Positions 5,204 to 5,997 of a stretch of 12,672 bases of DNA are shown piece after piece. Source of the DNA: a virus. Both the position numbers and the translations under genes were made by a program. Every line of letters starts with the position of its first letter. The first letter of the stretch is position 1. The notes below the pieces were generated by a model, which saw nothing but the letters and a program-made list of their open reading frames with translations, made no database searches and was not told the origin of the DNA. Where the stretch lies: the UHGV virus genome UHGV-0126747; one strand, given 5' to 3'.

Positions 5204-5703
5204 TATTCGCTCCCGTTATCGCAAGGTTCCTTTCGCTGGAAGTAATTCCAGCCGTTCCACTTCGCCAACTGGTTACCACTACCAACAGGCATACGGTTTG
5301 GATAACCGGACTTACATTTAGCGGCTTTTGCTCTGTCCATTGCAGACAGTTTGACGAGTCTCTCTTTCCCGTATCTGGCAGTGGTTATAAGTTTTGCAGA
5401 CGCTTCCAGCGCATAATCCGGAGCAATGCGGCAGGCAAGGTTGAAAATGACGGCATTGATAGCGTTATTTGATAAACCGTGCTCATCGCCCGGATCTGGA
5501 GCGACATCTGCATCAGCGAAAATGTAGCCAACGTTGATACCAGGTGACACATCACCGCCAAGCCATTCAGCCATCATCATTTCAAGGTCGTTGACGCCGT
5601 CTTCCATAGACTGCGGTTCGACATCGGTTAACGTGGCATTTGATGCCACACCGAGCTTACGTAATGCCGCAAGAACTAAATCACCCTTCGTTGTCAGGTT
5701 CAT
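5203..5703 (-). CDS. 4: Tail accessory factor gp4-like (portal-binding, peptidoglycan-hydrolase family), 166 aa
   Basis: From the internal ATG at 5703: [47 protein letters not shown]... parallels P22 gp4 ([33 protein letters not shown]...) and gives the same length I recall for gp4. The longer 204-aa track ORF is an upstream extension through the repeat and was not taken as the start. Confidence 0.8.
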
Positions 5704-5953
5704 CTGCTGCCGCCTTAGGTTTTCGACCAGGCTTTTTACGCTGTTTTTCTTCTGGCTCTGGCTCTGGCTCTGGCTCTGGCTCTGGCTCTGGCTCTGGCTC
5801 TGGCTCTGCAACATCATTCAGAAGATTATCAGGATGTGCAAACCAGCCAGCATCCAGATATTCCTGAAGCTCTTCGGCTTTCACGATTTCAAAGTCGTAT
5901 CCAACGCCTTTCCATTTCTTCATGTCGCCATGACGAAAGATCATGTGTGTCAT
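5681..5953 (-). CDS. Small hypothetical protein (90 aa) between coat and gene 4: compact N-terminal domain followed by an (EP)n repeat and a Lys/Arg-rich tail
   Basis: ATG at 5953 preceded by GGAG with a 6-nt spacer, immediately downstream of the coat terminator. Sequence [55 protein letters not shown]...[23 protein letters not shown]. The 3' end overlaps the gp4 start by 23 nt. The track ORF begins with GTG at 6001, inside the terminator, which is unlikely to be the real start. Confidence 0.5.
5751..5808. repeat. Perfect tandem hexanucleotide repeat (TCTGGC)n, about 9.7 copies; on the minus strand (GCCAGA)n
   Basis: Read directly: tctggc repeated from 5751 with the final partial unit ending at 5808. 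It is open in several frames and generates spurious ORFs on both strands (EP, SQ, WL and GS dipeptide repeats). Confidence 0.95.
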
Positions 5954-5965
5954 GCTTGTCTCCAG

Positions 5966-5989
5966 ATAAAAAAGGGAGCCGAAGCTCCC
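5966..5989 (-). terminator. Rho-independent terminator just downstream of the coat gene: stem GGGAGC/GCUCCC, UUCG tetraloop, U6 tract
   Basis: Minus-strand reading of 5989-5966 is GGGAGCTTCGGCTCCCTTTTTTAT: a 6-bp GC-rich stem with a UUCG loop followed by six T, starting 9 nt after the coat stop codon. Confidence 0.8.
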
Positions 5990-5997
5990 TCTGGTTA

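What the first reader, a model, noticed from the sequence alone, without database searches (positions are those of the whole stretch)
5681..5997. Conserved-looking small ORF placed right after a strong terminator between coat and gene 4
A 90-aa ORF with a good Shine-Dalgarno begins 13 nt after the U-tract of the coat terminator and overlaps the gene 4 start by 23 nt. The arrangement suggests it is translated only from read-through transcripts and may be coupled to gene 4 expression. Its N-terminal domain is not one I recognise. I cannot confirm from memory whether P22 itself has a counterpart here.
Basis: partly seen in the sequence, partly recalled or inferred. Interest (0 to 1): 0.5.

Follow-up and report, generated by a model that had tools for sequence, protein, structure and literature searches.

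The report
P22 orf69-family small gene
The small reading frame is a real, conserved gene: it is this prophage's copy of phage P22's orf69 (phage epsilon34's gene 6), which sits between the coat gene and gene 4 in most P22-like phages examined, is dispensable in the laboratory, and still has no known function.

Summary
The order is: coat gene (5998-7293), a G+C-rich UUCG hairpin with a T tract (5992-5966), GGAG (5963-5960), then a 90-codon ORF (ATG 5953, stop 5681). The ORF overlaps the gene 4 ATG (5703) by 23 nt.

The ORF is a real gene. pN/pS is 0.13-0.36 in its frame and about 1 or more in the other two frames. It is intact in all 89 complete related loci. It matches PHROG 1175 end to end (E = 2e-33).

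P22 does have a counterpart, orf69. The same cassette (coat, hairpin, SD, small gene, gene 4) occurs in epsilon34, Sf101, and Vibrio, Pseudomonas, Kosakonia and Sortsne phages. Published work calls the gene's role unknown and says it is non-essential in P22.

The protein has three parts:
- a confidently predicted 48-aa domain (beta hairpin plus helices) with no Pfam family or solved-structure relative;
- a hypervariable (Glu-Pro)n spacer encoded by a 6-nt repeat, with 1-15 units among 83 close relatives;
- a short Lys/Pro-rich tail whose last codons contain gene 4's Shine-Dalgarno sequence.

I read it as a non-virion accessory tether for head assembly or DNA packaging, whose translation also feeds ribosomes to gene 4. 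That function is inferred, not shown. The gene is already known and of modest interest.

The parts
5998..7293 (-). Coat protein gene (gene 5 homologue), 431 aa. It forms the upstream boundary of the cassette.
   Evidence: Pfam P22_CoatProtein, E = 1.6e-165. 73% identical to the P22 coat protein.
5966..5992 (-). Intrinsic-terminator-like hairpin: stem GGGAGC/GCUCCC extended to 9 pairs, UUCG loop, followed by TTTTTTAT.
   Evidence: Found by the terminator scan. Folding z = -4.1. A G+C-rich hairpin with a T run is kept at this place, with different stem sequences, in 12 of 14 diverse P22-like loci. It is annotated as a stem-loop or terminator in the P22, Sf6 and HK620 records. No Rfam family matches.
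5960..5963 (-). Shine-Dalgarno GGAG of the small gene, 6 nt before its ATG.
   Evidence: Read from the sequence. Kept in all but one of the upstream variants listed for related loci and in the distant homologues.
5681..5953 (-). Small gene of 90 codons plus stop: the orthologue of P22 orf69 / epsilon34 gene 6 (PHROG 1175).
   Evidence: phrog_1175, E = 2e-33, covering 1-72 of 72 profile positions. pN/pS is 0.13-0.36 in this frame and about 1 or more in the other frames. Among 83 close loci there are 17 synonymous and 4 non-synonymous variant alleles in codons 1-49.
5810..5953 (-). Codons 1-48: folded N-terminal domain with a beta hairpin, a helix carrying the [10 protein letters not shown] motif, HPD, and a second short helix.
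   Evidence: AlphaFold2 block-mean pLDDT of 84-92 for residues 1-40 and 69 for residues 41-50. Strands at 2-14 and 17-25, helices at 26-34 and 41-48. G9, W14, G16, G36, W37, H40, P41 and D42 are invariant in alignment A2. hhalign to the homing-endonuclease repeat module gives 96% probability over 20 columns.
5751..5808 (-). Perfect hexanucleotide tandem repeat (GAGCCA on the coding strand, 9.7 copies) encoding (Glu-Pro)9. This is the variable-length spacer.
   Evidence: Tandem Repeats Finder: period 6, 100% matches. 1-15 units among 83 close loci. In complete E. coli genomes the 371-nt query spans 341-515 nt. The spacer is predicted disordered.
5711..5746 (-). Codons 70-81, [12 protein letters not shown]: a Lys/Pro-rich basic patch that resembles an AT-hook.
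   Evidence: P-G-(R/P)-K-P-K is kept through synonymous codon changes in the window, Kluyvera, P22, epsilon34 and Rahnella versions. RRGRPPK in P0136, KRGRKA in Sf6 and KKGKRA in APSE.
5710..5716 (-). Gene 4 Shine-Dalgarno AAGGCGG, embedded in codons K80-A81-(A82) of the small gene, 6 nt before the gene 4 ATG.
   Evidence: Read from the sequence. An AAGG-containing purine-rich SD (for example TAAGGCGG, TAAGGGG or CAAGGAGC) lies upstream of the gene 4 ATG in all 14 diverse loci.
5203..5703 (-). Gene 4 homologue (head-tail adaptor), 166 aa. Its first 23 nt overlap the end of the small gene.
   Evidence: Pfam P22_Tail-4, E = 2.8e-58, from residue 2. 62% identical to P22 gp4. The longer ORF from ATG 5817 is not conserved.

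Best explanation
The ORF is this prophage lineage's orthologue of P22 orf69 / epsilon34 gene 6. That is a real but laboratory-dispensable accessory gene, built into a conserved cassette of the P22-type head operon: coat gene, terminator-like hairpin, strong SD, small gene, gene 4.

Shown:
- The gene is under purifying selection.
- It sits at the same place across deeply diverged P22-like phages.
- Its protein has a fixed three-part plan: (1) a compact, acidic N-terminal domain of about 48 aa; (2) a spacer that is free to change in length and content, here (Glu-Pro)9 from a slippage-prone 6-nt repeat, elsewhere 5-130 charged residues or an inserted WDGH domain; (3) a short basic Lys/Pro-rich tail.
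- The stop codon lies just past the gene 4 start, and gene 4's SD is encoded within the tail's last codons.

Inferred:
- The gene is made from late-operon mRNA that continues past the coat hairpin.
- Ribosomes finishing it end within 23 nt of the gene 4 ATG and so help load gene 4, which is needed in far fewer copies than coat.
- The protein is a non-virion tether or adaptor in head assembly or DNA packaging. The N-domain would hold a phage morphogenetic protein and the basic tail would contact DNA or an acidic surface.
- This resembles the role of lambda gpFI, which also sits between the major capsid gene and the head-completion gene and is also two modules joined by a flexible linker. That comparison is from my own knowledge and was not tested here.
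For: Identity and reality of the gene:
- phrog_1175, E = 2e-33.
- P22 orf69, epsilon34 gene 6, Sf101 gp06, Pseudomonas PfAn1, Vibrio 1.036.O, Sortsne, Kosakonia Kc166B and metagenomic P0136 all lie between the coat gene and gene 4.
- pN/pS is 0.13-0.36 only in this frame. Polymorphic sites fall 4/0/16 by codon position.
- 217 of 5426 complete E. coli genomes carry it, annotated as a hypothetical protein.

Architecture:
- The AlphaFold2 N-domain has block-mean pLDDT of 84-92 over residues 1-40, and the rest is disordered.
- The spacer varies from 1 to 15 hexamer units.
- The basic patch is kept through synonymous changes.

Link to gene 4:
- The stop lies from 3 nt before to 26 nt past the gene 4 ATG in 14 of 14 diverse loci, and the SD is embedded in the last codons.

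Not a major virion protein, and non-essential:
- Villafane et al. 2008, PMC2629481, citing Eppler et al. 1991.

The N-domain is acidic, net 0 to -7, which fits protein binding better than DNA binding.
Against: - No experiment or database annotation gives a function.
- The gpFI analogy rests only on position and architecture.
- The basic patch is weak in Sf101 and is replaced by other sequences in the Vibrio and PfAn1 proteins.
- Part of the tail's conservation could be imposed by gene 4's ribosome-binding site rather than by the protein's own function.
- The gene 4 start region is not predicted to be occluded by RNA structure, so coupling is not required for gene 4 translation.
- Tight overlaps are common throughout phage late operons.
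- Sodalis phiSG1 lacks the gene but keeps the hairpin.
Confidence: 0.35

Rival explanations
1. The ORF matters mainly in cis. It is a 'leader' reading frame whose translation carries ribosomes from the strong SD after the hairpin to the gene 4 start, setting gp4 output. The peptide itself would be of little importance.
For: The stop lies from 3 nt before to 26 nt past the gene 4 ATG in 14 of 14 diverse loci, and gene 4's SD sits in the last codons. The middle of the protein tolerates almost any length or content. The gene is non-essential in P22 (PMC2629481).
Against: The N-terminal 48 codons are under clear purifying selection: pN/pS 0.13-0.36, and 17 synonymous against 4 non-synonymous variant alleles. 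They fold confidently and are recognisable from enterobacterial to Vibrio and Pseudomonas phages. A pure leader ORF would not keep a domain. The gene 4 RBS is not sequestered.
Confidence: 0.2
2. It is a DNA-binding protein. The N-domain would be a single copy of the DNA-binding repeat used by GIY-YIG/HNH homing endonucleases and the tail would be an AT-hook. It would act on phage DNA, for example during packaging or late regulation.
For: phmmer over 1.8 billion representatives finds, besides the family itself, nucleases with 4-7 tandem modules of about 38 aa reading 'GkiWINnG..K.Ik..ELQ.YLddGW..G'. hhalign gives 96% probability, E = 2.4e-9. The tail reads RRGRPPK in P0136 and KGRKPK in P22.
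Against: The match covers only 20 columns (one strand plus the helix). The small-gene N-domains are acidic (net 0 to -7), whereas the nuclease modules are basic (mean +2.5). DNA binding by the nuclease repeats is itself only assumed. Pfam AT_hook does not match. The window has G-R-K-P and many relatives have G-P-K-P instead of the R-G-R-P core. The whole protein has pI 4.6.
Confidence: 0.15
3. It is a host-directed accessory (anti-defence or takeover) protein that happens to be lodged in the head operon.
For: It is small, acidic and non-essential, and it evolves faster than its neighbours between the window and P22: 31-38% identity against 73% for coat and 62% for gp4. Its repeat is hypervariable.
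Against: Its position and three-part plan are fixed across very distant P22-type head modules, unlike morons, which come and go. Across deep splits it is about as conserved as the coat protein. It was not scanned against PADLOC, because that library holds defence proteins rather than anti-defence proteins.
Confidence: 0.1
4. The real gene here is a longer gene 4 starting at ATG 5817, reading the repeat as (Gln-Ser)n as annotated in IME10 and Dewey. On this view the small ORF would be spurious.
For: An open frame of 204 aa exists at 5203-5817. Two public records annotate gene 4 that way.
Against: The gene 4 frame is closed by a stop 6-72 nt upstream of the conserved ATG in 11 of 14 diverse loci, and 12 of 14 have no upstream in-frame ATG. 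P22_Tail-4 aligns from residue 2 of the 166-aa form. The extension would not cover the N-domain codons, which show selection in the small ORF's frame. A 6-nt repeat keeps every frame open by construction.
Confidence: 0.03

Closest known systems
P22 orf69 / epsilon34 gene 6 / ST64T and L orf186 (PHROG 1175)
   Same: Same position after the coat hairpin. Same SD-to-ATG arrangement and the same overlap with gene 4. Same N-terminal domain (ELxxYLxDGWxxHP motif) and the same K-P-K-A tail. The role is unknown, and the gene is non-essential in P22 (PMC2629481).
   Different: The spacer differs. P22 has almost none (69 aa in total). epsilon34/ST64T/L carry an inserted WDGH domain (PF25311). This lineage has a perfect (Glu-Pro)n hexanucleotide repeat of variable length. 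The N-domain is only 31% identical to P22's.
Sf6 gene 6 / HK620 hkbT / APSE conserved ORF (PHROG 3251)
   Same: Same position, hairpin, size and overlap with gene 4, with a basic K-R-G-R-K-A tail.
   Different: It belongs to a separate PHROG. It has G-F in place of G-W and about 23% identity to the window's N-domain. Homology is plausible but was not demonstrated here.
Lambda gpFI (DNA-packaging accessory protein)
   Same: From my own knowledge: it is encoded directly after the major capsid gene and before the head-completion gene, is not in the virion, is partly dispensable, and has two modules joined by a flexible charged linker.
   Different: No sequence or fold comparison was made here. 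The module order and folds are not known to match. This is an analogy only.
Tandem 'DGW' repeat modules in the C-terminal regions of GIY-YIG and HNH homing endonucleases
   Same: Shares a strand plus helix motif (K.I...ELQ.YLddGW). hhalign 96%, E = 2.4e-9.
   Different: The small gene has a single copy rather than 4-7 tandem copies, is acidic rather than basic, has a longer hairpin and has no nuclease domain. The repeat itself has no Pfam family or solved structure.
TonB (Glu-Pro)n/(Lys-Pro)n spacer
   Same: An acidic Glu-Pro run followed by a Lys/Pro-rich stretch. Weak hits to TonB models.
   Different: The hits are far below the curated cut-offs (17.5 against 315 bits). The resemblance is compositional only, and no TonB domain is present.

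Membership tests
P22 orf69 / epsilon34 gene 6 family (PHROG 1175) | Profile match over the whole protein | tested here: met
   phrog_1175, E = 2e-33, 1-88 of the protein against 1-72/72 of the profile. P22 orf69 matches the same profile at 4.5e-31.
P22 orf69 / epsilon34 gene 6 family (PHROG 1175) | Located between the P22-type coat gene and gene 4, ending at or inside the gene 4 start | tested here: met
   Coat 5998-7293, ORF 5681-5953, gene 4 from 5703. The same order holds in 14 of 14 diverse loci.
P22 orf69 / epsilon34 gene 6 family (PHROG 1175) | Preceded by a G+C-rich stem-loop with a T run after the coat stop codon | tested here: met
   Present in 12 of 14 diverse loci.
P22 orf69 / epsilon34 gene 6 family (PHROG 1175) | Dispensable for growth in the laboratory | not testable with these tools
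   Reported for P22 only (PMC2629481, citing Eppler 1991).
AT-hook (Pfam PF02178) | R-G-R-P core flanked by basic residues | tested here: not met
   The window has K-K-P-G-R-K-P-K. AT_hook was not among the Pfam families returned at E <= 1. Many relatives have G-P-K-P. Only P0136 has R-R-G-R-P-P-K.
Homing-endonuclease 'DGW' repeat proteins | Shared module sequence | tested here: inconclusive
   hhalign 96%, E = 2.4e-9, but over only 20 columns.
Homing-endonuclease 'DGW' repeat proteins | Several tandem copies joined to a GIY-YIG or HNH nuclease domain | tested here: not met
   The ORF has one copy and no nuclease domain. The nucleases have 3-7 copies.
Intrinsic (Rho-independent) terminator | G+C-rich hairpin directly followed by a U tract | tested here: met
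   9-pair stem, UUCG loop, T6. z = -4.1.
Intrinsic (Rho-independent) terminator | Causes transcript 3' ends in vivo | not testable with these tools
   Needs 3'-end mapping. The late operon is read under Q-type antitermination (PMC2629481).
Lambda gpFI-like packaging accessory proteins | Sequence or fold similarity to gpFI; stimulation of the terminase-prohead interaction | not tested
   Only position and modular plan were compared, and from memory.
Virion structural protein (the RefSeq label of Sf101 gp06) | Detected in purified particles | not testable with these tools
   The Sf101 paper reports no proteomics. epsilon34 virion gels differ from P22's only in gp13, the tailspike and a band of about 15 kDa, with no band reported for the 186-aa gene 6 product.

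The most novel reading that the evidence does not exclude
The orf69 family is the P22-type counterpart of lambda gpFI: a non-virion tether that links DNA, or the packaging machinery, to the procapsid. Its N-domain would share ancestry with the unnamed 'DGW' repeat module of homing endonucleases. Its reach would be tuned in natural populations by a slippage-prone (Glu-Pro)n repeat, giving a length-variable spacer inside a head-assembly gene.
Probability: 0.12. Interest if true: 0.55.

Novelty: already known. Interest (0 to 1): 0.27.

Why it matters
P22 is one of the best-studied phages, yet a gene kept in most P22-like head operons examined here still has no assigned role. This analysis gives that gene a defined architecture: a folded domain, a free-length spacer and a basic tail that doubles as gene 4's ribosome-binding site. 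It corrects a recurring mis-annotation, the 5'-extended 'Gln-Ser' gene 4 in IME10 and Dewey. It also sets out simple genetic tests that separate a cis (coupling) role from a protein role. For the genome scan itself, the outcome is that the finding is real but ordinary: it is the known orf69 / gene 6 family.

Tried and rejected
Database searches on the N-domain that found nothing:
- Pfam and NCBIfam gave only compositional hits to the Glu-Pro run, such as Trypan_PARP and TonB, all far below cut-off.
- BFVD returned only small uncharacterised phage proteins.
- The afdb50 library was not available.
- Rfam on 5500-6200 gave no family.

Tool and literature dead ends:
- The search for related loci with the alignment failed because no conserved stretch was long enough, so I used the single protein instead.
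- Literature searches for orf69, hkbT and WDGH gave nothing relevant.
- The Casjens & Thuman-Commike 2011 review is not held.

Ideas rejected:
- That the C-termini of the Vibrio and PfAn1 homologues are HeH/SAP/Rho_N-type DNA-binding motifs. Pfam does not support this.
- That the gene 4 RBS is hidden in RNA structure and opened by translation of the small gene. The region is no more structured than shuffles (z = +0.69).
- That the long gene 4 starting at 5817 is real.
- That the upstream GTG (6001) start chosen by some gene callers is real. That extension runs through the hairpin and the coat stop and is absent from homologues.
- That Sf101's 'virion structural protein' label is experimental. 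The paper contains no proteomics.
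Full report
**1. What is in the sequence**

The genes of this part of the window run on the minus strand. The coat gene is at 5998-7293 (Pfam P22_CoatProtein, E = 1.6e-165) and ends with TGA at 6000-5998.

Eight bases later a hairpin begins. It has a 9-pair stem, a UUCG loop and a T6 tract, spanning 5992-5966. The 66 nt around it fold at -23.1 kcal/mol, against -12.5 +/- 2.6 for shuffles. That is z = -4.1, and none of 200 shuffles fold as well.

GGAG at 5963-5960 lies 6 nt before the ATG at 5953. The reading frame runs 90 codons to TGA at 5683-5681.

Gene 4 (Pfam P22_Tail-4, E = 2.8e-58, aligned from residue 2) starts at ATG 5703, so the two genes overlap by 23 nt.

**2. 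It is a real gene**

Megablast and tblastn find the locus in 8 phage records: three IME10 records, APC_JM3.2, Dewey, Louie, HZ41 and CurroJimenez_Bas106. It is also in 217 of 5426 complete E. coli genomes, where PGAP calls it a hypothetical protein.

I collected 92 loci from phage records, species-representative genomes and IMG/VR contigs. The frame is intact in all 89 that are complete. The other 3 are contigs that break inside the repeat.

Against relatives 5-40 substitutions away, pN/pS over the first 46 codons is 0.13-0.36 in the ORF's frame and 0.95-6.5 in the two other frames.

Among 83 close loci, polymorphic sites in codons 1-49 fall 4/0/16 by codon position. That corresponds to 17 synonymous and 4 non-synonymous variant alleles. 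The start codon and the GGAG are kept in all but one upstream variant.

**3. P22 has a counterpart, and so do far more distant phages**

In the P22 reference record a stem-loop follows the coat gene. Next comes 'orf69, unknown, putative', which overlaps gene 4 by 17 nt.

Its product aligns with the window protein at both ends:
- Sequence: MKIAIYKPGGSIMVWGVMAQMKVIDSSELPEYVKDGWLDHPSKLL...KPRKGRKPKAVSDADKD.
- Both proteins match PHROG 1175 end to end (2e-33 and 4.5e-31).

The same position holds a homologue in each of the following:

| Phage or source | Size / note |
|---|---|
| epsilon34 (gene 6; ST64T and L orf186) | 186 aa, with a Pfam WDGH domain inserted between the two ends |
| Sf101 (gp06) | 62 aa |
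| Metagenomic contig (P0136) | 78 aa |
| Pseudomonas phage PfAn1 | 151 aa |
| Vibrio phage 1.036.O | 98 aa |
| Escherichia phage Sortsne | 190 aa |
| Kosakonia phage Kc166B | 145 aa |

Sf6 gene 6, HK620 hkbT and the APSE ORF occupy the same slot with the same size and a similar basic tail. They fall in a separate PHROG (3251) and are only about 23% identical.

Sodalis phiSG1 keeps the hairpin but has unrelated sequence in place of the gene.

The hairpin plus T run is kept, with different stem sequences, in 12 of 14 diverse loci.

**4. What is published**

Villafane et al. 2008 (PMC2629481) discuss exactly this gene. They note that homologues of epsilon34 gene 6 differ strongly in length, and that the P22 version has an internal deletion. 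[quoted passage not shown] 1991.

The same paper reports that epsilon34 virion gels differ from P22's only in gp13, the tailspike and a band of about 15 kDa. That speaks against the 186-aa product being a major virion protein.

The phage L genome paper lists orf186 as 'detailed function unknown' (PMC8022706). The gene and its placement are therefore already known. Its function is not.

**5. Anatomy of the protein**

*N-terminal domain.* AlphaFold2, run on a 26-sequence alignment, predicts residues 1-48 as a beta hairpin (2-14, 17-25), a helix (26-34) and a second short helix (41-48). The block-mean pLDDT is 84-92 for residues 1-40 and 69 for residues 41-50. The rest is predicted disordered.
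- G9, W14, G16, G36, W37, H40, P41 and D42 are invariant in that alignment.
- No Pfam or NCBIfam family matches.
- The viral structure library returns only small uncharacterised phage proteins.

*Spacer.* The middle of the protein is (Glu-Pro)9, encoded by a perfect hexanucleotide repeat at 5751-5808.
- Among 83 close loci the number of units runs from 1 to 15. Occasional units are mutated to Glu-Ser, Glu-Gln, Glu-Thr, Asp-Pro or Glu-Leu.
- In complete E. coli genomes the 371-nt query spans 341-515 nt.
- Because the unit is 6 nt long, slippage never breaks the frame.

*Tail.* The C-terminus is [12 protein letters not shown] followed by an acidic end.
- P-G-(R/P)-K-P-K is kept across lineages through synonymous codon changes: CCT/CCG/CCA, GGT/GGG/GGC/GGA and AAA/AAG. 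The peptide itself therefore appears to be constrained.
- The codons for K80-A81 (AAG GCG, followed by G) are gene 4's Shine-Dalgarno sequence AAGGCGG, 6 nt before its ATG. An AAGG-containing purine-rich SD precedes gene 4 in all 14 diverse loci. Part of the tail's conservation is therefore imposed by gene 4.

**6. A lead on the N-domain**

An exhaustive phmmer search of 1.8 billion representative proteins found 26 hits at E <= 1e-3.

Besides family members, these are GIY-YIG and HNH homing endonucleases. Their C-terminal regions carry 3-7 tandem modules of about 38 aa reading 'GkiWINnG..K.Ik..ELQ.YLddGW..G'.

A profile-profile comparison of the two alignments gives 96% probability, E = 2.4e-9, but over only 20 columns: the second strand and the helix. 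The nuclease repeat has no Pfam family and no solved structure.

The nuclease modules are basic (mean net charge +2.5). The small-gene N-domains are acidic (0 to -7), and the whole window protein has pI 4.6.

I therefore take the resemblance as a shared structural module. I do not take it as evidence that the N-domain binds DNA.

**7. How it most likely works**

*Shown.* The gene is conserved and selected. It has a fixed plan of folded domain, free spacer and basic tail. It lies immediately behind the coat hairpin and ends just inside gene 4.

*Inferred.*
- No promoter-like site lies between the hairpin and the ORF. The gene must therefore be read from late-operon transcripts that pass the hairpin, like every gene downstream of it.
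- Ribosomes translating it run across gene 4's SD and stop within 23 nt of its ATG, which allows re-initiation.
- The gene 4 start region is not predicted to be structured (z = +0.69). Coupling would therefore add to gene 4 translation rather than gate it.

*The protein's own role.* I favour a non-virion accessory role in head assembly or packaging, at about 35% confidence. In this model the acidic N-domain binds a morphogenetic protein and the basic tail binds DNA or an acidic surface, across a spacer of adjustable length. The closest functional parallel I know is lambda gpFI. That comparison is from memory and rests on position and modular plan only.

*Rivals.*
- A purely cis-acting leader ORF. 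The selected, folded N-domain argues against this.
- A DNA-binding protein. The charge and the non-canonical hook argue against this.
- An anti-defence cargo gene. The fixed position across deep divergence argues against this.
- A long gene 4 isoform, which I reject. The gene 4 frame is closed 6-72 nt upstream of its ATG in 11 of 14 diverse loci.

**8. Verdict**

The gene belongs to the known P22 orf69 / epsilon34 gene 6 family and is already annotated in public records, so it is not novel as a feature.

What this analysis adds:
- the three-part architecture across the family;
- the dual use of the tail codons as gene 4's SD;
- the hypervariable Glu-Pro repeat in the E. coli lineage;
- the motif shared with homing-endonuclease repeats;
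- the correction of the extended gene 4 annotation.

Interest is modest (0.27).

Noticed in passing
window 3617-5203 (-), junction near 4535: This 528-aa ORF is an in-frame chimera. Residues 1-225 are the N-terminal half of gp10 (99% identical to IME10 gp10). Residues from about 219 to 528 are the C-terminal part of a gp20-type ejection protein (phrog_917 positions 162-509/509). The C-half of gene 10, genes 26, 14 and 7, and the start of gene 20 are therefore deleted, and the window comes from a defective prophage. The junction is contiguous in only 1 of 5426 complete E. coli genomes.
   Followed up: yes
L004 (IME10) 2887-3492; L002 (Dewey) 2887-3480: These records annotate a 5'-extended gene 4 that reads the hexamer repeat as (Gln-Ser)n, and they omit or truncate the small gene. 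The extension is not conserved in diverse relatives, so this is most likely a mis-annotation.
   Followed up: yes
proteins P0130-P0146 (homing endonucleases): GIY-YIG and HNH nucleases carry 3-7 tandem modules of about 38 aa reading 'GkiWINnG..K.Ik..ELQ.YLddGW..G'. These modules have no Pfam family and no solved structure. They look like an undescribed repeat in the presumed DNA-binding region.
   Followed up: partly
L002 (Dewey) 819-1340 (-): An HNH endonuclease gene is inserted on the opposite strand between the scaffold and coat genes. It is absent from the window and from the other close relatives.
   Followed up: no
window 763-1349 (+): An mnt-type repressor gene (Arc plus Repressor_Mnt domains, 763-1017) overlaps by 4 nt a gene for a Rap1a-like immunity protein (PF18602, E = 9.7e-15, 1014-1349). 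A type VI effector immunity-type protein is unusual cargo next to the immI-type region.
   Followed up: no
L008 (epsilon34) 1257-1817: In epsilon34/ST64T/L the spacer of the small gene is replaced by a folded WDGH domain (PF25311, E = 1.7e-40). The spacer position therefore accepts whole domains.
   Followed up: partly
L033, L051, L075: Three metagenomic or viral contigs end inside the Glu-Pro repeat. The repeat evidently breaks short-read assemblies, so counts of repeat units from draft assemblies may be biased.
   Followed up: no
window 5958-6005 (-): In the minimum-free-energy fold, the hairpin stem extends downwards so that the small gene's GGAG pairs with the last coat codons and the stop-codon region (CUGCGUGAUAA with UUAUCUGGAG). 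This would tie exposure of the SD to ribosomes terminating on the coat gene. I did not check whether this pairing is conserved.
   Followed up: no
L102 (Sodalis phiSG1) 1200-1495: The coat hairpin is kept, but the small gene is replaced by about 290 nt of unrelated sequence before gene 4. This was the only examined P22-type module without the gene.
   Followed up: partly
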